From assembly GCA_964388575.1 (NCBI GenBank), contig CAYMAZ010000008.1, forward strand, positions 1,821 to 65,820: a DNA stretch of 64,000 nt. Direction: 5' to 3'. The stretch comes from an uncultured Bacteroidales bacterium. Lineage in GTDB: Bacteria > Bacteroidota > Bacteroidia > Bacteroidales > DTU049. The notes beneath the pieces were generated by a model. The model did no database searches. It was not told where the DNA came from and saw only the letters and a list, made by a program, of their open reading frames with translations. This document shows, in pieces, positions 1,468 to 16,224 of this stretch. Made by a program: the position numbers and the translations under genes. Position 1 is the stretch's first letter; each line of letters begins with the position of its first letter.

Positions 1468-4400
1468 TTATTTGACCATAACAACAGTAATCCGTTTTTT
1501 CCCATCCATCCTCACCGGAACAGGTTCAGGAAACCGAACATGTTTAAACCAGGTTGTTTCATTTATTACCTCCTGTTTTTCAAGAATTTCCCATGCAATA
1601 AAACTTCGAAAAGCTTTATGTTGAATGGAGCAGTATCCCACGTTCATAGAAGTGACATTATGAAAGAAATGCGACCCCATAGATGCATCTAGGGGAAAAT
1701 CTTCAAGACTTGTTTCTACAATAAGTTTTGCATTACTTATCTGAGGCCAGTTGACCGGGATTCCAATAAACCTGTCTCGTGTTCCCCATCTTCCCGGACC
1801 GATCAGAATGTATTTCACATTCTCATCTATCATCTTCCTGTTCAACGCTTCGATTTCGTCTGCCATCACCATCGTTTGTGTTTTGTCAAAAATGTCTCTT
1901 TTAATATAAATTACATCCTGAATGTTTTCAATTTTGCCGTTCCCCATACTTTTTTCTGCATATAACAAAATTTCTTCTTTTTTCAAATCTGAAAGATTGA
2001 TTTCATAATCTTCATTAGATCCAAGAAGTGGCTTGATCTGCAAAAGATAAAACGAAGCTTTTAAATCCTTGTCTCTGTTGATGTCAACTGCAAATTCAAT
2101 TTCAACTGGCGCACCCATGGCTTCCTCTACAATCTGCAAAATCACTTCAATTGTTTTTGCAAGGGGAATGTAATTATATTTGAGAATATTACTAAAATTT
2201 ATTACTCGTGGGCCGTCTTTTGTGATACCGGGAATCATGGTCCCAGATTCCATGTCATAGACAGATGCCAGATGTCTTAAATTTCCGTGTTTTTCAGCAT
2301 CGTAAATATCAAGTTTTGCAAGAGAAGCCAATTCCCCTTCAAGTAAATCAATCTCATGTTTATTGAGATCAAGAGCCAGAAAATCAACCTGACTATTTTT
2401 GTATTGATCTTTGGGGCTCAGAATTTCAGTTGTCGGATATTTTGGTGAAAATCTGTAAGCCTTATCTCCCTCAACGACATATTTTCCAAGTCCGAGTGCG
2501 AGCACAGCAAACCCTTCTTCGGGCTGCATATGTGCAAACGGATAATAATTGTATGATTGTGCCACCCCACTGATATGAGGATAAAAATATGAATCAAATT
2601 TATTGCCCACAACCTCCTGAATCACGACTGCCATTTTTTCCTGCTCAATCTTATAATTCACAGCCTGAATATACCCTCTGGCCATTGAAGAAAAGACAGA
2701 TGCAAAAACGAGCTTAATGGCATCTGTCAGCTGCTTAAGACGTGCATCAAACGAAGGACTGGAATTTGAAATCAGGTAGGTTTCAAAGATTCCAGCAAAG
2801 GGTTGTCTGATAGAATCTTCAAACAAACCGCTTGATCTTACAGCAATTGGTTTTGTAACAAGTTTTAATAACCGCTTCAGTTTTTTCAACAAACCCTCAC
2901 TCAGATTTGCATTTAAAAAAGTCCTTTTTATGATTTCGTAGTCATTTTCATGCATAACCAAATCAAGAAGTTGATTTTTTTCCATGAAGAAATCGAACTC
3001 ATCTGTTCCTATAAAACAAGTCTTGGGTGTTCGGAGATTGATGTTTGGAATTATTTTGCTGAGGTCAAAGGAATACAATAATGTGTTAATAAATGCAAGT
3101 CCTCTACCCTTTCCCCCAATAGAACCAGAAGCAAGACTCAGAATATTTCCTTCTTCAAGCTGTTCAAAATCATCGAAAGGCATAATTTTTCCCTTATCCT
3201 GTTCATTTCTATGCGTTTTAATGATCTTCAGCAAAAACTCCCTGATTTCCTGTGCAGAAGTGAAGTCGGACACCCGTTTTGGCCCCAATATTTTTGCAAC
3301 ATGAATTTCACCACGAGCCATCAACCATAGTGAAAAATGATTTCTTTTGGCATGATAGAGCAATGAGTCATCAGGAATATTTCGAAGCTGAAATTCAAAT
3401 TCTTTCAGGGAACGTGCGACAGCAAGCTCTCTACCATCAGGACTGCGGTAGACAAAATGGCCAAAACCAAGATAATGCCTGATAAAACTCATGATATCAG
3501 CAGAAAGCGTTTCACTGTTCTTGTCAATAAATGTTGTTTTCAGTTCATAGGCACGATTGGCATTCTGAATATCAGATGATTGGATGATGACGGGAAGTTC
3601 CGCATTATCATTCCGAACCTGCTCCACAAGTTCGAAGCCCGCTGTTTCATCCAAAACTCCGTTTTTAAAGAATTTGACATCAGAGATCAGACAGAGCATA
3701 AATTCCTTAAACTTGGTATACAAGTCCATTGCTTCTTCATAACATGATACATGAAGAATTTTTGGTCTTCCCCTTAATTTTAATACTTTGTAAAGTTCAT
3801 CTGTACTTACATCATTGATGATGTCTCTGGTCTGTTCAAGAACGATTTTATAGAGCAAGGGTAGATAACGGCTGAAATAGCTCGGTTCATCCTCAACCAC
3901 AAGAATAACTCTGACCAATCCAAGACGTGTGTCATTTTCCACATTGACCATATCTTCAAGCTGCTTGATCATTGCAAAAAACAAATTTGGCATGCCATTC
4001 CACACAAACATTTTATCAAAATAAGGAAGTTCATTTTCTTCAATTTCAAATTCATCATCCACATTTGCATTCAATAGGAAAAAAATGGGAATGTAGGGAT
4101 ATTCACTTTTAATATCTTTACTCAATATTTTGGGAGTTCTGGTATCATTCCCTATCATATAAATAATGAGGTCATAATGTTTGGAACGCAGTTTTTCGAA
4201 CACTTCCTCAGGAGCAGAAACTGCAGTGATACGCGGAAGAGATGTCAGATTCATCTGCTGATATTCACCAAGAACGTGTTCTGCAATGTGCCCCTCTTTT
4301 TCAAGACTATAAGCATCGTATAATGTTGAAATCAATAATATTTCACGAACTTTGAAAGGCATCAGATCATGAAAAACATCTCTGTTATAATTCAGTTTTG

Positions 4401-4905
4401 CCCAATATTTTTCCAGAAGAAACATATTATCCTTTCCGTCACCTCTGTTAATGTCTCTTGCTTTTTCCTCATCTTCCTGAACTTTTGCAAAAACCTGTTT
4501 TGCTTTCTGACTGTTGAGAAACCCAATGACAATAGACGAGAGGTTTCCGAGCAAATCTTCTTCTTCTTTCAAAAAGGGGCCATTATCAGCATCCGGAAAA
4601 TCTTTTGTATAAAAGACTTCTATGATGCCCTGATAATTGTCTATGGTTTTAAAATTCTTGCAAAGCTTCCATTTGGTCTCATGAAACAAATGTGTTTTGT
4701 ACTCATTCTCCATAAATCTGATTCTTGCAACGGCGTGTTCAGGATACTGCATTGCATTTGGCAGAATCAGGCAGATATTATGCATTGTTTCATCAACAGA
4801 CTTATTTTCTCGTATGATAGCAGTTGTTTTGTTGATGGCATTTAATTCTTTAAGTCTTTCACGGCTCTCGTGTATCAGCTTTTCCAGATCCTGTTTTGAT
4901 TCCAT
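1468..4905 (-). CDS. GAF-like sensor + two receiver-like domains + PPDK-N-terminal ATP-grasp protein (likely to be named PEP synthase, but lacks the swivel-His and PEP-binding domains)
   Basis: 1145-aa ORF. N-terminal sensor module: LKELNAINKTTAII...PNAMQYPEHAVARIRF...IEVFYTKDFPDADNGPFLKEEEDLL. Receiver-like segments: REILLISTLYDAYSLEKEG; RVILVVEDEPSYFSRYL...LISDVKF. ATP-grasp hallmarks: GSIGGKGRGLAF, VRSSGLFED, GPGRWGTRD. I found no TSHAA-type phosphohistidine motif. Confidence 0.8.
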   Translation of the reverse strand: MESKQDLEKLIHESRERLKELNAINKTTAIIRENKSVDETMHNICLILPNAMQYPEHAVARIRFMENEYKTHLFHETKWKLCKNFKTIDNYQGIIEVFYTKDFPDADNGPFLKEEEDLLGNLSSIVIGFLNSQKAKQVFAKVQEDEEKARDINRGDGKDNMFLLEKYWAKLNYNRDVFHDLMPFKVREILLISTLYDAYSLEKEGHIAEHVLGEYQQMNLTSLPRITAVSAPEEVFEKLRSKHYDLIIYMIGNDTRTPKILSKDIKSEYPYIPIFFLLNANVDDEFEIEENELPYFDKMFVWNGMPNLFFAMIKQLEDMVNVENDTRLGLVRVILVVEDEPSYFSRYLPLLYKIVLEQTRDIINDVSTDELYKVLKLRGRPKILHVSCYEEAMDLYTKFKEFMLCLISDVKFFKNGVLDETAGFELVEQVRNDNAELPVIIQSSDIQNANRAYELKTTFIDKNSETLSADIMSFIRHYLGFGHFVYRSPDGRELAVARSLKEFEFQLRNIPDDSLLYHAKRNHFSLWLMARGEIHVAKILGPKRVSDFTSAQEIREFLLKIIKTHRNEQDKGKIMPFDDFEQLEEGNILSLASGSIGGKGRGLAFINTLLYSFDLSKIIPNINLRTPKTCFIGTDEFDFFMEKNQLLDLVMHENDYEIIKRTFLNANLSEGLLKKLKRLLKLVTKPIAVRSSGLFEDSIRQPFAGIFETYLISNSSPSFDARLKQLTDAIKLVFASVFSSMARGYIQAVNYKIEQEKMAVVIQEVVGNKFDSYFYPHISGVAQSYNYYPFAHMQPEEGFAVLALGLGKYVVEGDKAYRFSPKYPTTEILSPKDQYKNSQVDFLALDLNKHEIDLLEGELASLAKLDIYDAEKHGNLRHLASVYDMESGTMIPGITKDGPRVINFSNILKYNYIPLAKTIEVILQIVEEAMGAPVEIEFAVDINRDKDLKASFYLLQIKPLLGSNEDYEINLSDLKKEEILLYAEKSMGNGKIENIQDVIYIKRDIFDKTQTMVMADEIEALNRKMIDENVKYILIGPGRWGTRDRFIGIPVNWPQISNAKLIVETSLEDFPLDASMGSHFFHNVTSMNVGYCSIQHKAFRSFIAWEILEKQEVINETTWFKHVRFPEPVPVRMDGKKRITVVMVK

Positions 4906-6734: not shown

Positions 6735-6742
6735 TAATTTTG
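6735..6742 (+). promoter_or_regulatory. Putative -7 box (TAATTTTG) for the ECF sigma operon
   Basis: Exact TAnnTTTG match 45 nt upstream of ATG 6788. It overlaps the TTG (6740) used by the ORF track, which argues for the ATG start. Confidence 0.4.
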
Positions 6743-6787
6743 CTGAATTCAGGAACTCCAGGAGAAATCGAAAAGTTAAAAAATCAA

Positions 6788-7381
6788 ATGTATCAGATTG
6801 AAACAGACAATCTGGAATTTATCAGAAAAGGTGATAAAGCTGCTTTCGAAAAAATATTCAGAGATTTTTATGAAAAACTTTGTTCCTTTGCGAACAGCTA
6901 TGTCTTTGATATTAATGAAGCTCAGGATATTGTTCAGGATCTGTTTTTTCATATCTGGGTGAATAGGGAAAAATTTCCAAAGGAGATTTCCCTGAAAGCA
7001 TATCTTTTCACTTCAGTGAAAAACAGGTGTCTGAATGTTCTGAAACACAGAAAAATCTTGAGAAAACATTCTGAAAGTGTCCTTTCAGAGCAATCACCAA
7101 ACAGGTATGACGTCGAATTTCCTGAACCGGATGAATTACATGAAAAAATAAGAAAGACCATCGAACTTCTACCCCCGGAAAGAAGAAAAATTTTAATCAT
7201 GAGCAAGTTCGACGGCTTCAAATACAGGGAAATTGCTGAAAAGCTGAATATTTCAGTAAAAACCGTAGAAAATCAGATGGGAAAAGCCCTGCAGTTTTTG
7301 CGTGACCAGCTTAAAGACGAACTGTCTGTCTTGTTGTTTTTATACGGAATGATGACATTATTAAAGTATTTCAATTTATGA
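6788..7381 (+). CDS. ECF (group IV sigma-70) RNA polymerase sigma factor
   Basis: Region 2 (AQDIVQDLFFHIWVNREKF) and region 4 helix-turn-helix (ERRKILIMSKFDGFKYREIAEKLNISVKTVENQMGKAL). Start moved from TTG 6740 to ATG 6788. Confidence 0.9.
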   Translation: MYQIETDNLEFIRKGDKAAFEKIFRDFYEKLCSFANSYVFDINEAQDIVQDLFFHIWVNREKFPKEISLKAYLFTSVKNRCLNVLKHRKILRKHSESVLSEQSPNRYDVEFPEPDELHEKIRKTIELLPPERRKILIMSKFDGFKYREIAEKLNISVKTVENQMGKALQFLRDQLKDELSVLLFLYGMMTLLKYFNL

Positions 7382-7474
7382 TAGGGGAAAAACGAAATCT
7401 GGTTGTAATACAATATGAAAGAAATCTAGTTGTGATTTCTATGCGTGATTTTATAATTCAAACAACTGCACATC

Positions 7475-8515
7475 ATGAATGATCCGGTTCAACCTTTAGC
7501 TGCCGAACTTCTTGCTTCATACCTTGCCGGTGAGATCAGCAGTGAAAAAGCCATGGCTGTTGAGAGCTGGATTGATTCATCTCCGGGGAACAGGCAATAT
7601 TTTGAAGAATTCAGAAAAATCTGGATTGAAACCGGGAAACTGAATCCCCCACCCTTATTTGTTAACGTTGATCAGGCCTGGAACTCGCTATCAGAAAGAA
7701 TTGAATCATTTGAAAAAACAGAAACCCCATCTGCCATTTCTGCAAACCAGTTTATCTTTACACGAGGTTTAATTTTACGCATTGCTGCAATAATAATGAT
7801 CCCTCTGCTATCTGTTTTCGGATATCTGATTGTCAGAAATACTTTGAACAAGGGCAAAACAAATGAACTGTTTGCCACCTCAGCGACAGTGAAAAAAGAC
7901 CTCCCGGACGGATCTGTTGTCACACTGAATGCACATTCGGGTCTGTCCTATCCGGAGAAATTTTCAGGAAAATTGAGGGAAGTAACAATGCACGGGGAAA
8001 TTTTCTTTGAAATCAGTCCTGATAAGGAAAAGCCATTTAAGGTATTTGCTGATAACGCTGAAATTATTGTTACCGGAACAACATTTAATGTGAGGTCATA
8101 TGCAGATGAGCCTGAAATTGTAGTATATGTGGAAAGCGGTAGGGTCATAATGAAAGTTGGAAACAGAGATTCAGGTCAAACGTCATCCGTAACACTGGAT
8201 GCCGGAGATAAGGGAATTTATCACAAAACAACACAGATACTTGAAAAAACCACACTCACTGTGGCAAACGATCTGTTCTGGCTCAACAATACCCTGAATT
8301 TCATCAGAACACCTCTGCCTGAGGTCATTTCAGTTATTGAGAAAAACTATAAAGTGACCATTGAACTCAAACAGGAACATTTCAAAAACCTTCGGTTATC
8401 ATCCTCGTTCACCAACCAGCCGGTTGACTCAATTCTACAAATTATCGCAGGCACTTTTGATATGAAACTGAATAAGAATGGAACACACTATATCCTGGAC
8501 AACAATGACAGGTAA
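7475..8515 (+). CDS. FecR-family transmembrane anti-sigma factor
   Basis: 346 aa. N-terminal anti-sigma segment, one TM helix (LILRIAAIIMIPLLSVFGYLIV), a periplasmic FecR-like core (GEIFFEI...FKVFADNAEIIVTGTTFNV) and a DUF4974-like C-terminus (LPEVISVIEKNYKVTIELK...DSILQIIAGTFDMK). Confidence 0.88.
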   Translation: MNDPVQPLAAELLASYLAGEISSEKAMAVESWIDSSPGNRQYFEEFRKIWIETGKLNPPPLFVNVDQAWNSLSERIESFEKTETPSAISANQFIFTRGLILRIAAIIMIPLLSVFGYLIVRNTLNKGKTNELFATSATVKKDLPDGSVVTLNAHSGLSYPEKFSGKLREVTMHGEIFFEISPDKEKPFKVFADNAEIIVTGTTFNVRSYADEPEIVVYVESGRVIMKVGNRDSGQTSSVTLDAGDKGIYHKTTQILEKTTLTVANDLFWLNNTLNFIRTPLPEVISVIEKNYKVTIELKQEHFKNLRLSSSFTNQPVDSILQIIAGTFDMKLNKNGTHYILDNNDR

Positions 8516-10313
8516 ATTGCATAAACATATTCTATACAGTTCAATTATTCTGTTGTTTCAGACATGCTGTTATGCACAGGCGTATCCGCTTGCAAAAAAG
8601 ATCACAATTCATATTCAGAATCAGTCAGTAGAGAACGTTCTGGCTTCAATCAGCCGGTCGGCAGATGTTGTTTTTTCGTACAATTCGGATATCATCCCGC
8701 TTGATTCATTTGTAACAATCAGGTACGAAAACACAGAAATCCAGAAGATACTGAACAACCTGTTTCCAAATCGTTATACTTACAAAACTTCAGGCAAATA
8801 CATCATTATACAAAACAAAAAAGTCATTTCAAAAGAGAATAAGCAAACTGAATTACAGGTTAAAGGGAGAATCATGGATTCAGAAACCGGAGATGCATTG
8901 GCAAATACATCAGTGTACAGTATTTCAGGGAAAGAGGAAATACTCACCGATTCGTCCGGTGGATTCACGCTGACAGTCAGACCCGGTGATGAAGACTTGT
9001 TTATTGCTGTGAACAATGAACATTTTGAGGATACACTTTTACTTATACCTTCGGCACATTCTGATTCTCTGGTCATCAGACTGAGGCCAAAAACCCTTCT
9101 TGATTCAATCAGACAAAACCTGAAACAGCTGGATATTGGAAAACCCTTCAAAAAATTGGGAATTTCATCCCTTTTTGTCAGGAAAGACATGATGACACAT
9201 GCCAGGAATATTGATTACTTTACACAGCGGCCGGTCCAGATATCATTTCTTCCGTTTGCCGGAACAAATTACAGGCTGAGCGGTTCGGTATCAAACATAT
9301 TTTCCCTGAATATTATTTCGGGCTACTCTTATGGTGTGAACGGTTGTGAAATCGGTGGTGTGCTCAATATCAACAGGGGTTTTGTAAGAGGGTTTCAGGC
9401 TGGCGGATTCGGGAACATTACCGGGGGAAAGACAAAGGCTGTTCAGGCAGCAGGATTCTTTAACCAGAATATGGGAAGCGTCAGTGGAGTTCAGTTTGCC
9501 GGATTTTACAACATGACCACAGATACTTTAAAAGGAATGCAGGCTTCTGGATTTGCAAACGTTGCAGGCGATACTTCGGCCGGAGCTCAGTTTGCAGGAT
9601 TTGCAAACGTTGGAGTAAAGACATTTTCAGGAATACAGATCGCAGGATTTGCAAATATTGTATCACATGACATAAAAGGTTTACAAATAAGCGGTTTTAC
9701 AAATGTCACAGGAAAAACATTACAGGGTATACAAATTGCAGGATTTCTCAATTATGCAAAAAAGGTTGAAGGTTCTCAGATCGGATTGATTAATATTGCT
9801 GATAGCGTATCCGGGCTATCCTTCGGCGTTTTCAATCTCATCTTAAATGGATTACACCAGTTTTCAATACATTTCAGCGAAACAGGCTGTAGTAGCCTGA
9901 GGCTGAGCCTTGGAACACATCATTTTTATTCAGTATACGGAATTCATCTGATGCCCGTTCAAGGGTCACTCGTACCTGGTTATGAATACGGATTCGGGAC
10001 GTACCTTTTTCATAAATCTAAGCTGAATCTCAGCATTGATGCCGGAGCGACCTACTTTCCCACAAATAAAATGCAGAATTTTGATGATTTTCTTATTTCA
10101 AAAATATCAGCAGATCTGAATGTCAAAATTTCACACCATCTGGCCATTTTTGCCGGGCCAACATATTCAGTCCATATTTCAGAAGACAAAAGTACTGATC
10201 CTGCAACGATACCGGACAATCTTATTTTTAATGTAAATATGAGAAAAGAATACGGTCATTACATGTCTACAGGGTGGTTTGGACTGCAGGCTGGTTTAAA
10301 ACTGGCATTCTAA
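8505..10313 (+). CDS. STN + carboxypeptidase-regulatory-like N-terminal extension fused to 16-residue GFxN repeats and a short C-terminal beta-barrel-like segment (no plug or TonB-dependent barrel recognised)
   Basis: Signal peptide (MTGKLHKHILYSSIILLFQTCCYAQA). STN-like segment: ITIHIQNQSVENVLASISRSADVVFSYNSD...ILNNLFPNRYTYKTSGKYIIIQ. CarboxypepD_reg-like segment: VKGRIMDSETGDALANTSVYSISGKEEILTDSSGGFTLTV. Then the repeats, with the protein ending ...WFGLQAGLKLAF. ATG 8505 overlaps the FecR stop by 11 nt; an alternative ATG is at 8478. Confidence 0.75.
   Translation: MTGKLHKHILYSSIILLFQTCCYAQAYPLAKKITIHIQNQSVENVLASISRSADVVFSYNSDIIPLDSFVTIRYENTEIQKILNNLFPNRYTYKTSGKYIIIQNKKVISKENKQTELQVKGRIMDSETGDALANTSVYSISGKEEILTDSSGGFTLTVRPGDEDLFIAVNNEHFEDTLLLIPSAHSDSLVIRLRPKTLLDSIRQNLKQLDIGKPFKKLGISSLFVRKDMMTHARNIDYFTQRPVQISFLPFAGTNYRLSGSVSNIFSLNIISGYSYGVNGCEIGGVLNINRGFVRGFQAGGFGNITGGKTKAVQAAGFFNQNMGSVSGVQFAGFYNMTTDTLKGMQASGFANVAGDTSAGAQFAGFANVGVKTFSGIQIAGFANIVSHDIKGLQISGFTNVTGKTLQGIQIAGFLNYAKKVEGSQIGLINIADSVSGLSFGVFNLILNGLHQFSIHFSETGCSSLRLSLGTHHFYSVYGIHLMPVQGSLVPGYEYGFGTYLFHKSKLNLSIDAGATYFPTNKMQNFDDFLISKISADLNVKISHHLAIFAGPTYSVHISEDKSTDPATIPDNLIFNVNMRKEYGHYMSTGWFGLQAGLKLAF
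9339..9843 (+). repeat. In-frame 48-nt (16-residue) tandem coding repeat array, about 10 units
   Basis: Units read from the translation: AGFFNQNMGSVSGVQF / AGFYNMTTDTLKGMQA / SGFANVAGDTSAGAQF / AGFANVGVKTFSGIQI / AGFANIVSHDIKGLQI / SGFTNVTGKTLQGIQI / AGFLNYAKKVEGSQI ... Confidence 0.85.
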
Positions 10314-10343
10314 AATAATCATAAGTTATTTTTTAAAAAAATT

Positions 10344-10380
10344 CCTATTCAGATAAGAATCCAATAGGGGTATTTTTTTT
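10344..10380 (+). terminator. Possible weak intrinsic terminator or attenuator between the STN protein and its paralog
   Basis: Stem cctatt (10344-10349) / aatagg (10363-10368), extendable with two G-U pairs. 13-nt loop, then T8 (10373-10380). Confidence 0.35.
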
Positions 10381-10430
10381 CTGAGTTGTTATTGATAAGA
10401 TTACTCAATTATTCATTAATAACAATTACA

Positions 10431-11612
10431 ATGAAACAAAAACTATTTTCTGCGATTGTTTACCTGATTTTGTTGAACAGCCTGAATGCACATTCACAAA
10501 ACGGCGACAGCTCAAAGACATGCGTCAGGCCTGTTCAGTTGACATTTGTTTATCCACTTGGTACCAACGGCGTTGAATCAGGGAAAATCACCAACAACTT
10601 TTCTTTTAATATATTTGCAGGGCACAATGGAGGTCTGAATGGCGCTGAAATCGGAGGTTTTTCAAATACCATCAAACATACAATGACTGGTTTTCAGATT
10701 GCGGGATTCAGCAATGTTGTACTTGGAGAGGTTTCGGGCTGCCAGATCAGCGGATTCAGCAATTTCGTAAAACAAAACGTAAAAGGATGCCAGATTGCCG
10801 GTTTTTCAAATGTGACAGGAGATTCATCAAAAGTCTCCCAGTTTTCGGGTTTTTCAAATGTGATCAACGGATCAAATAACGGGATTCAAATTTCAGGCTT
10901 TTCCAATGTAACTTCTGATGATTATGAAGGTGCACAGATTTGCGGATTCAGCAATGTTTCGAGAGGAACCCACAGAGGGTGCCAGATTGCAGGGTTTTCA
11001 AATGTTTCCACAGGCAACCTTGAAGGATTGCAACTGAGCGGATTCATTAATGTTGCAGGGAAACTGAAAGGTGCTCAGATCGGCTTTATCAATGTCTGTG
11101 ATACCGTTGAAAACGGAATTCCCTTCGGTTTTATCAGTATCGTAACCAAAGGGTACAAAGCCATTGATCTGCATTATGATGAATCGCATTTTTTTAATAT
11201 CGGTATTCATACAGGAGCAGACCAGTTTTATAACATATTCACAGCAGGTCTCAGAATCAAATCTGAAAATTTCTTCTGGTCATACGGCTATGGTGTCGGA
11301 TCAAAATTCAGGATGACAGACAGATTGAACACAAATCTTGAGTTAACTTCAACTTACATTTCTCCTGACAAATGGTATCACAAAAGTTTCAATATGATTT
11401 GCAGGTTGCAACTGCTTGGGTCGTATAGACTGATAAATCATGTACATCTGTTTGGTGGAGTCAGTGCCAATGCTTTCATTACAAACAGAAAAACGGATGA
11501 AGGCATCCTGACCGACAGCGGACTTGTTTCATGGTCATTTTACAGAACAGACACGGGAAATTTTCTGCATAAATTCTATCCTGGATTCAGTGCCGGTATT
11601 CGCATATTTTAA
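10431..11612 (+). CDS. Paralogous GFSN-repeat outer-membrane protein (no STN or CarboxypepD_reg domain)
   Basis: Signal peptide MKQKLFSAIVYLILLNSLNAHSQ, ten 16-residue repeats, and a C-terminal alternating-hydrophobic segment ending ...GFSAGIRIF. Start moved from TTG 10386 to ATG 10431. Confidence 0.75.
   Translation: MKQKLFSAIVYLILLNSLNAHSQNGDSSKTCVRPVQLTFVYPLGTNGVESGKITNNFSFNIFAGHNGGLNGAEIGGFSNTIKHTMTGFQIAGFSNVVLGEVSGCQISGFSNFVKQNVKGCQIAGFSNVTGDSSKVSQFSGFSNVINGSNNGIQISGFSNVTSDDYEGAQICGFSNVSRGTHRGCQIAGFSNVSTGNLEGLQLSGFINVAGKLKGAQIGFINVCDTVENGIPFGFISIVTKGYKAIDLHYDESHFFNIGIHTGADQFYNIFTAGLRIKSENFFWSYGYGVGSKFRMTDRLNTNLELTSTYISPDKWYHKSFNMICRLQLLGSYRLINHVHLFGGVSANAFITNRKTDEGILTDSGLVSWSFYRTDTGNFLHKFYPGFSAGIRIF
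10641..11144 (+). repeat. In-frame 48-nt (16-residue) tandem coding repeat array, about 10 units
   Basis: Units: AGFSNVVLGEVSGCQI / SGFSNFVKQNVKGCQI / AGFSNVTGDSSKVSQF / SGFSNVINGSNNGIQI / SGFSNVTSDDYEGAQI / CGFSNVSRGTHRGCQI / AGFSNVSTGNLEGLQL / SGFINVAGKLKGAQI ... Confidence 0.85.
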
Positions 11613-11640
11613 ACAAACCATTCATTAAAATCCTTACAAA

Positions 11641-12372
11641 ATGAAAACAAATCTCATGAAATCAATTGCAATTTTTGCACTCATCATTATCACAACAATG
11701 CTTGTCACATCCTGCCAAAAGGAGTTCGGGAAAGGCCCTGTTGTGAATGTAATCAGAACTGTTGACAATTTTTCAAAAATTAAAGTTGAGAATTCTGCAA
11801 CAGTGCGTATTAAGAAAGGAGAATTTCAAAAAGTTGAAGTGTCAGATTATGAAAATCTAATCGGTTATTTATCGGTTGAAACAATTAATAATGAGTTGAT
11901 TATCAAAACAAAGCCTTACAATGTCATTCTGAAAAATTCACTGGCAACAGTAACCATCACTACTCCGGATGTTCTGACAGCAATTAAAATCAGCGGGAGC
12001 AGTGATGTGTCAGTTACAGATACCATGTCTACCTTACAAAATGTTCAAATCAGTGGAAGCGGATCATTTGAATCAAAATACAATGCATACACTTCATATA
12101 TTTCAAGTGAGATTTCCGGATCAGGAGATATCAGTATGAACGGTGTAAACGATAATGTTTATGCAAAAATTTCCGGATCTGGAAATATCAATTTCGGAGG
12201 ACTCGTATCTCAGCACGCCGTGTGTAATATCAGCGGCAGTGGTGACATTACAGTCAATGCACAGCAAACTCTCAGTGTCACTATCAGCGGCAGTGGAAAT
12301 GTGTATTACTTCGGCAATCCATCAATTAACACCAATATTTCAGGAAGCGGAAAAATTATCAGATTGAACTGA
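11641..12372 (+). CDS. DUF2807 (putative autotransporter-adhesin head GIN domain) lipoprotein
   Basis: Lipobox LVTSC after a hydrophobic leader. Repeated (I/V)SGSG(D/N)(I/V) rungs (ISGSSDV, ISGSGSF, ISGSGDI, ISGSGNI, ISGSGDI, ISGSGNV, ISGSGKI), typical of DUF2807 beta-helices. Confidence 0.75.
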   Translation: MKTNLMKSIAIFALIIITTMLVTSCQKEFGKGPVVNVIRTVDNFSKIKVENSATVRIKKGEFQKVEVSDYENLIGYLSVETINNELIIKTKPYNVILKNSLATVTITTPDVLTAIKISGSSDVSVTDTMSTLQNVQISGSGSFESKYNAYTSYISSEISGSGDISMNGVNDNVYAKISGSGNINFGGLVSQHAVCNISGSGDITVNAQQTLSVTISGSGNVYYFGNPSINTNISGSGKIIRLN

Positions 12373-13323: not shown

Positions 13324-16224
13324 ATGAATAAAAAAACAGGATCAATGTTGAAGTTTTTTAATAAAATTATACTCCCTTCATTTCTGGCAGTATTACTTTT
13401 TATTCTAACATTATTTTTTATTGTAATTCCGGTATTTGAAAATGCAATGATGGACCGGAAACGGGAAATGATTCAGGAGCTTACAAACTCAGCATCAAGT
13501 ATTCTGGAAAAATATTATAAAGACGAGGTTGAAGGAATGATTTCCAAAGAAGATGCACAGCAAACTGCCATCTCACGCATTCAATATCTTCGTTACGGTG
13601 ATGAAAACAAAGATTATTTCTGGATCACCGATATGCATCCCAATATGATTATGCATCCATATGTTCCTGAACTAAACGGCACTGATCTGAGTGATTATGA
13701 AGATTCACACGGGAAAAAATTGTTTGTTGAATTTGTCAGTATTGTTAAAGAACAGGGACAGGGATTTGTTGACTATATGTGGCAATGGAAAGATGACTCA
13801 ACACATGTTGTTCCAAAACTTTCATATGTCAAAAAATTTGAACCCTGGGGATGGATTATCGGAACTGGCATTTATATTGAAGATGTCAGAAAAGAAATTT
13901 CTGCACTCTCATCAAAGTTAATGTACATAAGCATTATCATTGCAGCTATTACTGCATTGTTACTTACATTCATTTCATTTCAGTCATTGCGCATTGAACG
14001 AAAAAGACAATCGGCTGAAAGTAATCTGAAAGAATCACGAGAAAAATATCGATCATTAGTTGAAGCCTCAACTGAAGGACTTGTGATGATCAGTGACAAC
14101 AGGATCATTTTTGCAAATCCGGTGTTTCTGAAATTATCAGGATTGGCATGGGATGAACTTGAATCGATGAACTGGCAAGATATTTTCATTTTACCAGTAC
14201 AGTTGAATGAGAAACTTACCCATGGCAATCATGATATTGAGACCGAACCGTTTGAGACTGACATCTCTCTTCCTGTCAATCGTAAAATTCATGCACTCAT
14301 TCATTTAACACCCATATTATTTTACGGTAAGAAGGCAGTCATCTTTTCAATAAAAGATATCAGCACCGATATTATTATGAAACGCGAGTTGTTTGAAAGT
14401 CGTGAGCGGTTCAAGACATTGATGGATAAATTGAATGTTGGTATTTTCAGAACAACAATGGATGCCCGTGGTCGTTTTGTTGAAGCCAATCATACAGCTC
14501 TGCAGCTTCTAGGATATAACGATAATGAGCATTTTAAAGAAAAATATATCCTTGATCTGTTTGCTGAAAAAGAAGATAAAAAACAATTCAGAAATGATTT
14601 GTTAAATAAGGGATTCATCAGAAACAAGGTCATCAAATTAAAAAAAACTGACGGGGAAATTGCCCATATGATGGTTTCTTTGGCTGTAATTACAGGTGAA
14701 GACGGGCAGGCAACATATTGTGATGGAATCATTGAACCATTTTCATCCAAAATAACAGCCAAACAGTTTACTCAAAAGATAATCAACACAAATGAACTGA
14801 GAACTCTAATTCATTCAATCGGAGTCCATACATTTATCAAACCACTTCAAACAATCAGGCTGGACCAACCGATTGGAGAGGCTACACTTTTAATGGATGA
14901 TTTACAAAACAGAGTTCTTTTTGTTTCTGATAATCAAAGTCGGATTCTTGGTTTTGTAACTGATACTGAGATTGCAACTGGTCTGACCACATCGGGATTG
15001 AAAAAAAATTCACCCGTTTTTAACATCATGAGATCTCCGCTTATTTCGGTAAAAGAAAACACTTCTGTAATTACTGCAAAATCAATACTAAGAAAAAGAT
15101 CATATCCTGCTTTAACAGTTTCAGGTTATGATGAAAACATTGTTGGGTACATACACACAAACGACCTTAATGCTATTGATGAAATCCGTATGAGTGAGAT
15201 TTTTGAAGAAATCGGAAAGGCATTAAGTATAGAAAATCTTACTCAATTACGTTTTGAATTTGTAACCATCATTGCCAAACTAACAGAAAACAAATTACCT
15301 TCAAATGTAATACTGCAACTTCTTTCCGAAGTGTTTGATTCCATAACTTCAAGATTGTTTGATTTGGCTTATGTTGAACTGGGCACCCCTCCTGTTGAAT
15401 TTGCTTTTGTTGTAATGGGGAGTGAAGGCAGACTTGAACAAACACTGAAAACAGATCAGGATAATGCAATGATATATCGGGATACTGAAACAGATATGGA
15501 AAGCCATTCCAAATACTTTTTAAATCTTGGAACCTGGATTAATAACGCTCTTCATTACATCGGCTACGCACTTTGCAAAGGTGAAAATATGTCAATGAAT
15601 CCTCAATGGAACAAACCTTTAAGCGATTGGAAGAACTATTTTTACAAATGGATTAATAGTGGACAACCTAAAGATTTACTTGATATCAATATTTTCTTTG
15701 ATCTTCGATTTTGTTATGGAACTCCTGCAATTGTTGAAGAGCTTGAATCACATATTCTTTCTGAAAGCAAATCCAATACTGCATTTCTGCATCATCTTGC
15801 AAAAAATGCGATGCATTTTAAACCATCAGTAAATCTTTTTGGAAATGTAATAGTTGAATCTGCAGGCGCACCTGCAGATACACTTCGAATTAAAGACAAT
15901 ATTGCAGCCATTGTAAATTTTACAAGAATTTATGCCTTACAACAGGGAATAACAAATAAAAACACAATACTCAGGTTAAGAGAGCTCAACATTAAGGGAG
16001 TTTTAAACGATTCGGAATTAACAGAAACCGTTAGAGTATTTGAATATCTTACTTCAATCCGAATTCAACATCAGGCATCGCTAATTCTTGAGAATAAAGA
16101 AGCTGACAACATTATTCATGTCAAGACACTTACTGGCTTTGAGCAGACAATGATTAAAAAATCATTATCAATAATAAATGACATGTTAAGCAAGCTCAAT
16201 TTTGACTTTAAACTAAATTTATAA
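13324..16224 (+). CDS. Membrane sensor: single Cache - TM - PAS - PAS - CBS pair - DUF294 putative nucleotidyltransferase + DUF294_C
   Basis: 966 aa. TM1, then a Cache-like ectodomain (DYFWITDMHPNMIMHPY...GFVDYMWQWKD...WGWIIGTGIYIEDV), then TM2. Two PAS-like blocks (RSLVEASTEGLVMISDNRIIFANP; FKTLMDKLNVGIFRTTMDARGRFVEAN), a CBS pair, and the DUF294 signature FAFVVMGSEGRLEQTLKTDQDNAMIY. Confidence 0.8.
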   Translation: MNKKTGSMLKFFNKIILPSFLAVLLFILTLFFIVIPVFENAMMDRKREMIQELTNSASSILEKYYKDEVEGMISKEDAQQTAISRIQYLRYGDENKDYFWITDMHPNMIMHPYVPELNGTDLSDYEDSHGKKLFVEFVSIVKEQGQGFVDYMWQWKDDSTHVVPKLSYVKKFEPWGWIIGTGIYIEDVRKEISALSSKLMYISIIIAAITALLLTFISFQSLRIERKRQSAESNLKESREKYRSLVEASTEGLVMISDNRIIFANPVFLKLSGLAWDELESMNWQDIFILPVQLNEKLTHGNHDIETEPFETDISLPVNRKIHALIHLTPILFYGKKAVIFSIKDISTDIIMKRELFESRERFKTLMDKLNVGIFRTTMDARGRFVEANHTALQLLGYNDNEHFKEKYILDLFAEKEDKKQFRNDLLNKGFIRNKVIKLKKTDGEIAHMMVSLAVITGEDGQATYCDGIIEPFSSKITAKQFTQKIINTNELRTLIHSIGVHTFIKPLQTIRLDQPIGEATLLMDDLQNRVLFVSDNQSRILGFVTDTEIATGLTTSGLKKNSPVFNIMRSPLISVKENTSVITAKSILRKRSYPALTVSGYDENIVGYIHTNDLNAIDEIRMSEIFEEIGKALSIENLTQLRFEFVTIIAKLTENKLPSNVILQLLSEVFDSITSRLFDLAYVELGTPPVEFAFVVMGSEGRLEQTLKTDQDNAMIYRDTETDMESHSKYFLNLGTWINNALHYIGYALCKGENMSMNPQWNKPLSDWKNYFYKWINSGQPKDLLDINIFFDLRFCYGTPAIVEELESHILSESKSNTAFLHHLAKNAMHFKPSVNLFGNVIVESAGAPADTLRIKDNIAAIVNFTRIYALQQGITNKNTILRLRELNIKGVLNDSELTETVRVFEYLTSIRIQHQASLILENKEADNIIHVKTLTGFEQTMIKKSLSIINDMLSKLNFDFKLNL

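What the first reader, a model, noticed from the sequence alone, without database searches (positions are those of the whole stretch)
9339..11144. Two paralogous arrays of a 16-residue (48-nt) G-F-x-N ... G-x-Q repeat, probably a beta-solenoid
Both proteins contain about ten consecutive in-frame units with the pattern [AS]-G-F-x-N-[VIMF]-x6-G-x-Q-[IFAL]. Examples are AGFANVGVKTFSGIQI and SGFSNVINGSNNGIQI.

Each array spans about 168 residues (9339-9843 and 10641-11144). Each decays at its C-terminal end into degenerate units (GLINIADSVSGLSF; GFINVCDTVENGIPF).

The strict period, the invariant G-F/N/G/Q positions and the alternating hydrophobics suggest one solenoid rung per repeat. In the second paralog, Cys recurs at repeat position 14 (GCQI three times), which would stack into a ladder.

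I vaguely recall similar GF-N repeats in uncharacterised surface proteins of other phyla, but I cannot name a characterised family.
Basis: seen in the sequence. Interest (0 to 1): 0.65.

Follow-up and report, generated by a model that had tools for sequence, protein, structure and literature searches.

The report
Solenoid-stalk outer-membrane proteins tied to sigma/anti-sigma pair
Two neighbouring genes encode outer-membrane-anchored proteins whose strict 16-residue repeats are predicted to stack into a rigid beta-solenoid rod. The larger protein carries the docking domain normally found on nutrient-sensing receptors, so it looks like an undescribed, receptor-less partner of a sigma/anti-sigma gene switch that is widespread in Bacteroidota.

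Summary
Both ORFs (p1 8505-10313, p2 10431-11612) contain nine in-register 16-residue units, [AS]-G-F-x-N-[VI]-x6-G-x-Q-[ILVF], followed by one or two conserved 14-residue units. Identity at lag 16 is 13-16 SD above shuffles.

AlphaFold2 gives a very confident model (pLDDT 92.5 for the whole protein, 97 for the repeat region). It has two short strands per unit. Its only fold neighbours are beta-helices, and none is close.

The C-terminal ~150 residues form an OmpX/NspA-like 8-stranded outer-membrane barrel ending in Phe.

The repeat is catalogued but uncharacterised (NCBIfam NF047436, LA_2272_repeat). There is no Pfam family and no solved relative.

The important new point is context. p1 also carries an STN domain and a SusC-type NTE domain, but no plug and no 22-strand barrel. 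In 68 of 70 Bacteroidota genomes its homologue sits directly after an ECF sigma and a FecR anti-sigma gene.

Best reading: an outer-membrane-anchored periplasmic stalk presents STN to FecR, giving a cell-surface-signalling variant that lacks a TonB-dependent transducer. p2 is a head-less paralogue.

The "surface protein" and "Cys ladder" ideas are not supported.

The parts
6740..7381 (+). ECF sigma-70 factor, Bacteroidetes type. First gene of the module.
   Evidence: TIGR02985 Sig70_bacteroi1, E 3.5e-52. Sigma70_r2 and r4_2 domains. A homologue lies upstream of the p1 homologue in 68/70 genome loci.
7475..8515 (+). FecR-type anti-sigma factor with FecR and FecR_C domains. Its stop codon overlaps the likely p1 start (8505) by 11 nt.
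   Evidence: PF04773 E 9.8e-14 and PF16344 E 4.6e-11. Directly adjacent to the p1 homologue on the same strand in 68/70 loci.
8505..10313 (+). p1: signal peptide, STN-like domain, SusC-type NTE (CarbopepD_reg) domain, linker, solenoid, C-terminal barrel. The ORF opens at 8478; the likely start is M10 at 8505.
   Evidence: ORF. A 100%-identical database protein, P0121, is 602 aa, and M10 is nearly invariant among homologues. No Plug or TonB_dep_Rec hit in p1 or in 53 homologues.
8595..8696 (+). STN-like domain of p1 (residues 40-73 of the 611-aa ORF).
   Evidence: PF07660 E 0.0092, 16.2 bits, below the 28.4-bit cut-off in this copy. 43/53 homologues match STN at E<0.01, best 9.3e-12.
8853..9092 (+). 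Carboxypeptidase-D-regulatory-like domain of p1, the type that forms the N-terminal extension (NTE) of SusC.
   Evidence: PF13715 E 6.2e-4 in this copy and a match in 53/53 homologues. The family profile hits the solved SusC NTE: 9hfj_A E 4.4e-8, and 8aa4_A residues 29-124.
9234..9353 (+). Conserved N-terminal cap of the p1 solenoid (RPvQiSFlPfaGTN...NG.EIGG).
   Evidence: N-cap HMM built from p2 homologues scores 47.4 bits, E 2.1e-14.
9354..9872 (+). p1 repeat array: nine 16-residue units plus two 14-residue cap units.
   Evidence: lag-16 z = 12.8. Aligns unit for unit with the p2 array.
9873..10310 (+). p1 C-terminal beta-barrel domain, ending ...GLKLAF.
   Evidence: Collinear with the p2 barrel. 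Weak DUF481 outer-membrane-protein hit, E 0.019. Terminal Phe read from the sequence.
10431..11612 (+). p2: signal peptide, solenoid, barrel. A head-less paralogue of p1. The ORF opens at TTG 10386; the likely start is M16 at 10431.
   Evidence: M16 is nearly invariant in 64 homologues. The closest homologue, P0001, is 393 aa.
10527..10652 (+). Conserved N-terminal cap of the p2 solenoid.
   Evidence: N-cap HMM 85 bits. Weak NF047435 LA_2272_fam_lipo match at residues 70-106.
10653..11129 (+). p2 repeat array: nine 16-residue units plus the 14-residue cap unit(s).
   Evidence: lag-16 z = 15.9. AF2 model shows periodic 4- and 7-residue strands with pLDDT about 98. NF047436 LA_2272_repeat 28.8 bits, above the cut-off of 25.
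11154..11609 (+). p2 C-terminal barrel of about 8 strands, outer-membrane type, ending ...GIRIF.
   Evidence: AF2 strands at 257-265, 270-278, 281-292, 295-309, 314-327, 336-350, 353-366 and 394-407. Foldseek neighbours are NspA, OmpX, Opa60, PagL, the OmpA transmembrane domain and designed 8-strand barrels, with TM up to 0.56 of the target.
11641..12372 (+). DUF2807 (GIN-domain) putative lipoprotein. Last gene of the module.
   Evidence: PF10988 E 3.4e-36. The lipobox-like ...LVTSC is read from the sequence. Present in 20/59 full loci and in the closest relative's module.

Best explanation
The two repeat arrays are beta-solenoid stalks of two paralogous outer-membrane proteins.

Architecture. 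Each protein is exported by a signal peptide and anchored by a C-terminal barrel of about 8 strands with a terminal-Phe beta-signal. The N-terminal array (a 45-residue cap, nine 16-residue rungs and 14-residue cap rungs) forms a rigid rod. At the textbook rise of 4.8 A per rung this rod is roughly 5-6 nm long. Because it sits N-terminal to an even-stranded barrel, it should project into the periplasm.

p1. p1 additionally carries an STN domain and a SusC-type NTE domain at the tip of the rod. These are the two periplasmic modules of Bacteroidota TonB-dependent transducers. p1 is encoded immediately after an ECF sigma factor and a FecR anti-sigma factor.

Proposed mechanism (inferred). The p1 STN domain docks onto the periplasmic C-terminal domain of FecR, as the signalling domain of FoxA/FecA does. 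This docking controls FecR proteolysis and hence sigma activity. p1 has no plug and no 22-strand channel, so the input cannot be TonB-driven ligand passage. More likely it is the state of the envelope or outer membrane, or something bound by the solenoid.

p2 and DUF2807. p2 (stalk and anchor only) and the DUF2807 lipoprotein are accessory partners or outputs of the same module.

What is shown. The repeat, the predicted fold, the domain content, the family size and the synteny.

What is inferred. The periplasmic location, the STN-FecR contact and the nature of the signal.
For: Repeat: strict period of 16 residues.

Fold:
- AF2 pLDDT 92.5 for the whole protein and 97.0 for the repeat region, with a periodic two-strand rung.
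- Fold neighbours of the array are exclusively beta-helices.
- Array length changes in quanta of 16 residues across 488 relatives.

Barrel:
- Eight long strands, with Foldseek neighbours NspA, OmpX, Opa60 and PagL.
- Both proteins end in Phe.
- With the N-terminus placed in the periplasm, the long loops (8 and 27 residues) fall outside the cell and the 2-residue turns fall inside, which is the usual pattern for outer-membrane proteins (own reasoning).

Head domains:
- STN in 43/53 homologues and CarbopepD_reg_2 in 53/53.
- The profile matches the solved SusC NTE at E 4.4e-8.
- No Plug or TonB-receptor domain.

Synteny:
- Sigma and FecR lie directly upstream on the same strand in 68/70 species-level genome loci across Bacteroidota.
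- FecR and p1 overlap by 11 nt.
- The five genes move as one block between this window and its closest relative.

Precedents:
- The FoxA signalling domain binds the C-terminus of FoxR and protects it from proteolysis (PMC11637429).
- In Bacteroidota, Dma anti-sigma factors use an 8-strand outer-membrane barrel as their sensor or anchor (PMC10927553).

Accessory genes in related loci point to envelope biology:
- Fatty-acid hydroxylase fused to DUF4833, and SDR fused to DUF2062.
- The stand-alone short form lies next to acyltransferase genes (Pfam Acetyltransf_5 and Acyltransferase; the likeness to the lipid-synthesis enzymes OlsB and OlsA is my own recollection), an OmpA-family gene and SurA.
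Against: - No coordinates were available. Handedness, which residues face inward, and the solenoid-barrel geometry could not be inspected.
- The STN hit in this particular p1 is below Pfam's cut-off (16.2 against 28.4 bits).
- Domain order is STN then NTE. This is the reverse of SusC transducers, where the NTE precedes the STN (PMC7782687).
- No STN-FecR complex was modelled or tested.
- 29/80 related loci also encode a TonB-receptor-like protein without an STN domain. In those genomes p1 may serve a receptor instead of acting alone.
- Rung number varies from 5 to 13 among long forms, which argues against a strict ruler.
- NCBIfam curators call the repeat a 'surface' repeat.
Confidence: 0.55

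Rival explanations
1. Split transducer. p1 is the detached signalling arm of a separate TonB-dependent receptor that lacks its own STN domain. The receptor senses a ligand, and p1 relays the signal to FecR.
For: In 29/80 related loci a ~780-aa protein with CarboxypepD_reg and a weak Plug domain, but no STN, is encoded in the same gene string, usually downstream on the same strand.
Against: This window has no such gene in the module or anywhere in its 64 kb. About two thirds of the loci lack one nearby. There is no evidence of contact between the two proteins. The receptor may simply belong to the sigma regulon, as in classical cell-surface signalling.
Confidence: 0.2
2. Surface-exposed solenoid. 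The repeats form an extracellular adhesin-like or passenger-like rod displayed by the C-terminal barrel, in the manner of an autotransporter.
For: An N-terminal beta-solenoid followed by a C-terminal barrel is the domain order of type Va autotransporters. The NF047436 description says 'surface repeat'. LA_2272 appears in a list of predicted outer-membrane proteins (PMC5348505).
Against: The barrel matches 8-strand barrels, which have no channel for a passenger, and not the 12-strand autotransporter barrel; the best autotransporter hits have TM <= 0.20. No autotransporter Pfam domain was found. The STN head of p1 would end up outside the cell, away from FecR, despite the 68/70 synteny. The loop-length pattern favours a periplasmic N-terminus.
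Confidence: 0.12
3. Purely structural envelope proteins. The rods act as outer-membrane-anchored periplasmic spacers or tethers with no signalling role, and the sigma/FecR pair merely regulates their expression.
For: Short forms without an STN domain occur alone in envelope-biogenesis neighbourhoods. p2 has no head domain. The family is very large, with 8155 cluster representatives.
Against: This does not explain why the long form keeps an STN domain (43/53 homologues) and always follows FecR. Rung number is variable.
Confidence: 0.13

Closest known systems
Cell-surface signalling by TonB-dependent transducers (FecA/FecR/FecI, FoxA/FoxR/FoxI; SusC-like transducers of ECF-controlled PULs in Bacteroidota)
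   Same: The gene trio has the same logic: ECF sigma, FecR-type anti-sigma with a FecR_C domain, and an outer-membrane protein carrying an STN domain and a SusC-type NTE domain. The expected contact is between STN and the FecR C-terminus (PMC11637429, PMC7186176).
   Different: There is no plug, no recognisable TonB box and no 22-strand barrel. They are replaced by a 16-residue-repeat solenoid and a barrel of about 8 strands. The order STN then NTE is reversed relative to SusC transducers (PMC7782687).
[quoted passage not shown]
   Same: Both are Bacteroidota sigma/anti-sigma systems whose envelope-side element is an 8-stranded outer-membrane barrel and not a TonB-dependent transporter. In both cases the proposed signal is the state of the outer membrane (PMC10927553).
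   Different: In Dma the barrel is fused to the anti-sigma factor through a disordered linker. Here the anti-sigma factor is a separate FecR protein, and the barrel protein reaches it through a folded solenoid, an NTE domain and an STN domain.
NCBIfam NF047436 LA_2272_repeat, NF047435 LA_2272/LA_2273 lipoprotein and NF047437 VC2662 family (uncharacterised)
   Same: The G-x-Q-x-G-[FL]-x-N repeat is shared. p2 scores 28.8 bits against a cut-off of 25, and 56/64 homologues match.
   Different: The lipoprotein N-terminal model and the VC2662 full-length model are far below their cut-offs: 17.5 against 30 bits, and 20.9 against 140 bits. No function is known for those families. VC2662 is described as an uncharacterized hypothetical protein, and deleting it in a strain lacking ompU left the colony phenotype similar to the ompU-deletion strain (PMC10865864).
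Ice-nucleation protein central repeat (16-residue beta-solenoid coils, AGYGSTxTAxxxSxLT)
   Same: The coil length of 16 residues is the same, and both units begin A-G-aromatic. In both, one repeat is predicted to form one coil (PMC9418140).
   Different: p1 and p2 give no hit to any ice-nucleation family in Pfam at E <= 1. They lack a TxT water-ordering motif and have about 11 rungs against about 65. The likeness is geometric and is not evidence of homology.
Left-handed beta-helix (hexapeptide-repeat) proteins such as GlmU, LpxA, LpxD and YdcK
   Same: These are the nearest solved folds to the repeat-only model.
   Different: E >= 0.2, TM <= 0.3 and rmsd about 11 A. Those proteins have 18 residues and three strands per rung, against 16 residues and two strands here. 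There is no sequence similarity.

Membership tests
Beta-solenoid repeat protein (generic) | Tandem units of constant length, each forming one coil of parallel strands | tested here: met
   Strict 16-residue period. AF2 pLDDT 97 with an identical 4- and 7-residue strand pattern in every unit. Fold neighbours are all beta-helices. Indels come in steps of 16 residues. This rests on prediction only; no coordinates were inspected.
NCBIfam NF047436 LA_2272_repeat | HMM score at or above the curated cut-off of 25 bits | tested here: met
   p2 scores 28.8 bits. p1 scores 22.9 bits, just below the cut-off. 56/64 homologues of p2 match at E<0.01.
NCBIfam NF047435 LA_2272/LA_2273 family lipoprotein | N-terminal lipoprotein domain model at or above 30 bits | tested here: not met
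   p2 scores 17.5 bits and p1 gives no hit. The signal peptides do not look like lipoprotein signals (read from the sequence).
NCBIfam NF047437 VC2662 family | Full-length equivalog model at or above 140 bits | tested here: not met
   p1 scores 20.9 bits, over the repeat part only.
TonB-dependent transducer (cell-surface signalling receptor) | N-terminal STN signalling domain | tested here: inconclusive
   PF07660 scores 16.2 bits against a cut-off of 28.4 in this p1. However, 43/53 homologues match, best E 9.3e-12.
TonB-dependent transducer (cell-surface signalling receptor) | Plug domain and 22-strand TonB-dependent receptor barrel | tested here: not met
   No PF07715 or PF00593 hit in p1 or in 53 homologues. 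The C-terminal part is about 150 residues and models as an 8-strand barrel.
TonB-dependent transducer (cell-surface signalling receptor) | Encoded next to an ECF sigma factor and a FecR-type anti-sigma factor | tested here: met
   True in the window and in 68/70 genome loci.
SusC-like transporter | Carboxypeptidase-D-regulatory-like NTE domain | tested here: met
   PF13715 matches in 53/53 homologues. The profile matches the solved SusC NTE 9hfj_A at E 4.4e-8. The position relative to STN is reversed.
[quoted passage not shown] | Anti-sigma domain and outer-membrane barrel in one polypeptide | tested here: not met
   p1 and p2 have no anti-sigma domain and no inner-membrane helix. FecR is a separate gene.
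Type Va autotransporter | 12-strand translocator barrel (PF03797) with a linker running through its pore | tested here: not met
   No such Pfam hit. The best fold matches are 8-strand barrels; the autotransporter barrels of Hbp and EspP match only at TM 0.15-0.20.
Pentapeptide repeat protein (a JGI annotation of one homologue, P0189) | 5-residue period, with four repeats per square coil | tested here: not met
   There is no lag-5 or lag-20 signal and no Pentapeptide Pfam hit.
Outer-membrane beta-barrel protein | Signal peptide, closed amphipathic barrel and C-terminal aromatic beta-signal | tested here: met
   Helical N-terminal signal region. Eight long strands matching NspA, OmpX and PagL. 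Terminal Phe in both proteins. Localisation itself cannot be tested here.

The most novel reading that the evidence does not exclude
A TonB-independent form of cell-surface signalling that is widespread in Bacteroidota. In it, a small outer-membrane barrel carries a rigid periplasmic beta-solenoid stalk, and the stalk holds an STN domain against the FecR anti-sigma factor. Loss, displacement or ligand-loading of the stalk, caused for example by outer-membrane damage, an assembly defect or altered envelope spacing, would then be what releases the sigma factor. This would be a mechanical or integrity sensor built from transducer parts, with head-less paralogues such as p2 acting as modulators.
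Probability: 0.3. Interest if true: 0.75.

Novelty: new variant of a known kind. Interest (0 to 1): 0.6.

Why it matters
Bacteroidota genomes carry on average about 22 ECF sigma factors (PMC7826278). The textbook partner of their FecR-type anti-sigma factors is a SusC-like TonB-dependent transducer.

This finding points to a second outer-membrane partner class. It is very common (8155 cluster representatives, and 273 species-level genome hits in one scan) and has no transport channel at all. It keeps the STN and NTE modules but mounts them on a solenoid stalk and an 8-strand anchor.

If the model holds, three things follow:
- The set of trans-envelope signalling architectures grows beyond classical cell-surface signalling and the recently described Dma factors.
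- A testable role is assigned to a large family of proteins annotated only as hypothetical.
- A compact 16-residue solenoid fold with no solved relative is added to the known folds.

If the stalk turns out to be merely structural, the family is still a major uncharacterised envelope component.

Tried and rejected
1. DNA-level tandem repeat: none found.

2. Sequence search of the PDB. The single sequence of p2 gave only noise. The 64-sequence profile gave nothing even at E <= 10.

3. Foldseek searches.
- The whole model against the PDB matched only through the barrel.
- The repeat-only model against the PDB had no match better than E 0.2.
- The repeat-only model against BFVD gave one uncharacterised phage protein at E 6.8e-4 and generic fibre proteins, which is uninformative.

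4. Matched-length pairing of the two stalks. p1 and p2 in the window have the same rung number. In 38 loci that carry both forms, only 5 match, against 5.8 expected from permutation. The idea was rejected as a general rule.

5. Cys ladder: rejected because the cysteines are not conserved.

6. The first related-locus scan, with a 53-sequence alignment, failed because no stretch was conserved enough. It was repeated with 12 sequences.

7. A last homologue search used a 63-residue query built from the two 14-residue cap regions, in order to fish LA_2272/VC2662-type proteins from other phyla. It found no candidate. The cross-phylum link therefore rests only on the NCBIfam model hits.

8. Literature searches for the family name, LA_2272, VC2662 and STN/solenoid/anti-sigma combinations found no paper describing this architecture.

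9. The promoter and terminator scan was at background level and uninformative.

10. I could not obtain model coordinates. The inward or outward orientation of N5, Q15 and the hydrophobic positions 14 and 16 is therefore unresolved.

Full report
**1. What is in the sequence**

The flagged coordinates lie in two adjacent same-strand ORFs: p1 (8478-10313, 611 aa as listed) and p2 (10386-11612, 408 aa). The likely true starts are M10 of p1 (nt 8505) and M16 of p2 (nt 10431). A 100%-identical database protein is 602 aa, the closest p2 homologue is 393 aa, and both methionines are nearly invariant in alignments.

Translating the two flagged windows reproduces the quoted peptides. G-[FLV]-x-N recurs at exactly 16-residue spacing nine times in each protein. 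It then recurs at 14-residue spacing.

Identity at lag 16 is 52 (p1) and 61 (p2) against about 11 +/- 3 in shuffles (z = 12.8 and 15.9). Lag 32 is similar and lag 8 shows nothing.

At the DNA level the units are only 47% identical, and Tandem Repeats Finder finds no repeat. The repeat is therefore old and is maintained at the protein level.

**2. The unit across the family**

I took 2021 units from 237 homologues. The profile is [A57/S27]-G99-F85-x-N99-[V/I]-x-x-[G/K/D]-x-x-x-G78-x-Q87-[I/L/V/A/F], with numbers in per cent.

Position 14 is a generic small or hydrophobic residue. The three 'GCQI' cysteines of p2 are not conserved: Cys occurs in 17/64 homologues at column 119, is not among the six commonest residues listed at column 135, and occurs in 4/64 at column 199. 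Only two of the three sit on neighbouring units.

The 'decaying' C-terminal units are in fact a conserved 14-residue cap, consensus vQlGfiNiadsvekGipiGflsivkkG. There is an equally conserved 45-residue N-terminal cap, RPxQxSFxPxGTNG...NxxSxNxxAGY.GG..G.EiGG.

The distance between the two caps in 488 relatives falls on 74, 90, 106, 122, 138, 154, 170, 186, 202, 218 and 234 residues. Evolution therefore adds or removes whole 16-residue units.

**3. Fold**

AlphaFold2 on p2 with 64 homologues gives pLDDT 92.5 and pTM 0.79. The repeat region alone (residues 44-256) gives pLDDT 97.0 and pTM 0.87.

Every unit shows the same pattern:
- a 4-residue strand (positions 4-7);
- a 3-residue turn (positions 8-10);
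- a 7-residue strand (positions 11-16 plus position 1 of the next unit);
- a 2-residue turn (G2-F3).

Foldseek of the repeat-only model against the PDB returns only beta-helical proteins: YdcK, GlmU, LpxD/LpxA, tapirin, the HxuA TPS domain and an ice-binding protein. None is close (E >= 0.2, TM <= 0.39). Sequence and profile searches of the PDB find nothing.

I conclude that the array is very probably a beta-solenoid with one 16-residue rung per unit, of a geometry with no solved relative. I could not view coordinates, so handedness and side-chain orientation remain open.

**4. The rest of the proteins**

After the array, p2 has eight long strands. Foldseek places these next to NspA, OmpX, Opa60, PagL, the OmpA transmembrane domain and designed 8-strand barrels, with TM up to 0.56 of the target. 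Both proteins end in Phe (...GIRIF...GLKLAF), the classical beta-signal of outer-membrane proteins (established knowledge).

p1 and p2 align collinearly across cap, array and barrel: 32% identity over 381 residues with 3 gaps.

p1 has about 250 extra N-terminal residues:
- A weak STN hit (16.2 bits) that is clear in the family, matching 43/53 homologues with best E 9.3e-12.
- A CarbopepD_reg_2 domain matching 53/53 homologues.

The family profile matches the solved N-terminal extension (NTE) of a SusC homologue: 9hfj_A at E 4.4e-8, and 8aa4_A residues 29-124. There is no Plug or TonB-receptor domain.

**5. Catalogue status**

There is no Pfam family for the array or the barrel.

NCBIfam NF047436 'LA_2272 family surface repeat-containing protein' matches p2 above its cut-off (28.8 against 25 bits) and p1 just below it (22.9 bits). 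56/64 homologues match. The Leptospira lipoprotein model and the Vibrio VC2662 model are hit only weakly.

The papers that mention LA_2272 or VC2662 treat them as hypothetical proteins. [quoted passage not shown] The only paper using that phrase lists one such gene in a table of differentially expressed genes.

The family is large. 8155 representatives of 50%-identity clusters match at E <= 1e-3, and 3185 match at E <= 1e-30.

**6. Context**

In the window the gene order is:
- ECF sigma (6740-7381);
- FecR anti-sigma (7475-8515);
- p1;
- p2;
- DUF2807 lipoprotein (11641-12372).

The flanking genes are unrelated: glutamate dehydrogenase, a metallophosphoesterase and a Cache/PAS/CBS/DUF294 protein.

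A scan of one genome per species found 273 relatives of p1, all in records labelled as Bacteroidota or left unassigned. They include Dyadobacter, Pedobacter, Spirosoma, Chitinophaga, Imperialibacter, Marinifilum and Cyclobacteriaceae.

Among the 80 loci fetched:
- 68 of the 70 with enough upstream DNA have sigma and FecR directly upstream on the same strand.
- Of the 59 with both flanks, 35 have a second, usually short, paralogue. 20 have DUF2807, 16 have both and 20 have neither.

Clustering all ORFs revealed further recurrent neighbours:
- a ~780-aa receptor-like protein with CarboxypepD_reg and a weak Plug domain but no STN (29/80 loci);
- an SDR fused to DUF2062 (8 loci);
- a fatty-acid hydroxylase fused to DUF4833 (8 loci).

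None of these three is in this window.

In the closest relative the same five genes are intact but sit on the other side of the metallophosphoesterase and DUF294 genes. The five genes therefore move as a unit.

A stand-alone short form lies beside acyltransferase genes (Pfam Acetyltransf_5 and Acyltransferase; their likeness to OlsB and OlsA is my own recollection), an OmpA-family gene and SurA.

**7. Mechanism**

Shown: the domain content, the predicted folds and the synteny.

Inferred, step 1: location. An even-stranded barrel puts both termini in the periplasm. With that orientation the long loops (8 and 27 residues) face outward and the 2-residue turns face inward, as in known outer-membrane proteins. 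The solenoid would then be a periplasmic rod, roughly 11 regular rungs plus caps, or about 5-6 nm.

Inferred, step 2: contact. In p1 the rod carries NTE and STN at its tip. STN domains of transducers bind the C-terminal domain of FecR-type regulators. In FoxA/FoxR this binding protects the regulator from proteolysis until the signal arrives (PMC11637429). I propose that p1 does the same for the adjacent FecR.

Inferred, step 3: input. Without a plug or channel, the input is probably the state of the outer membrane or envelope, or a ligand of the stalk. Bacteroidota already offer a precedent for sigma control through an 8-strand outer-membrane barrel, the Dma factors (PMC10927553).

p2 would be a head-less partner or output.

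One difference from SusC transducers is the domain order. p1 has STN then NTE, whereas in SusC transducers the NTE precedes the STN (PMC7782687).

**8. Rivals**

(a) Split transducer serving an STN-less receptor. This is plausible where such a receptor is adjacent. It is not the case in this window.

(b) Surface adhesin or autotransporter-like display. This is disfavoured by the 8-strand barrel, by the STN head and by the FecR linkage.

(c) Purely structural spacer. This is possible for short forms, but it does not explain the STN domain or the synteny.

The idea that the two stalks pair with matched length was tested and rejected.

**9. Verdict**

The repeat and its solenoid interpretation hold. 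The surface location and the Cys ladder do not.

The repeat type is catalogued but uncharacterised. The architecture and its near-obligate link to a sigma/FecR pair appear undescribed in the literature I could search.

I rate it a new variant of a known kind: cell-surface signalling without a TonB-dependent transducer. Interest is 0.6.

Noticed in passing
window 6740-12372 compared with L084 5296-11055: The five-gene block (sigma, FecR, p1, p2, DUF2807) is intact in the closest relative but sits in a different place. Here it lies between glutamate dehydrogenase and the metallophosphoesterase. There it lies after the Cache/DUF294 gene and before the SSF transporter. The block has moved as a unit.
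   Followed up: partly
window 8505-8515: The FecR stop codon (8515) overlaps the likely p1 start (8505) by 11 nt, which suggests translational coupling. In most related loci the stop-to-stop frames of FecR and the p1 homologue also overlap or abut, but gene starts were not determined there.
   Followed up: partly
L030 9728-12166; L001 10182-12545; 29 of 80 loci: A ~780-aa receptor-like protein with CarboxypepD_reg and a weak Plug domain but no STN recurs downstream of the module. This raises the possibility of a transducer split over two genes.
   Followed up: partly
L064 2817-4370 and seven other loci, most of them Pedobacter; L024 8849-10213 and seven other loci: Fusion proteins that look lipid-related recur beside the module: a fatty-acid hydroxylase fused to DUF4833, and DUF2062 fused to a short-chain dehydrogenase. 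This hints at a link to envelope lipids.
   Followed up: no
L042 11900-13976: A second sigma-FecR-solenoid module begins about 1.8 kb downstream of the first, giving tandem modules in one genome.
   Followed up: no
p1/p2 repeat unit compared with the ice-nucleation protein unit: Both are 16-residue solenoid coils that begin A-G-aromatic: AGF.N here and AGYGST in ice-nucleation proteins. This is probably a convergent solution for a tight turn. No homology was detected.
   Followed up: partly
window 13324-16224 (+): A 966-aa protein combines Cache, two PAS domains, CBS and a DUF294 nucleotidyltransferase with its substrate-binding domain. It is a membrane sensor with an unusual output. The same gene is conserved next to the metallophosphoesterase in L084.
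   Followed up: no
window 1468-4905 (-): A 1145-aa ORF whose only Pfam match is the PPDK_N ATP-binding domain, at residues 595-968. The other ~770 residues are unassigned.
   Followed up: no
L002 8001-9269: A stand-alone short solenoid-barrel gene with no sigma/FecR nearby sits between acyltransferase genes (Acetyltransf_5 and Acyltransferase; OlsB/OlsA-like by my own recollection) and an OmpA-family/DUF5723/SurA cluster. This is an envelope-biogenesis neighbourhood.
   Followed up: no
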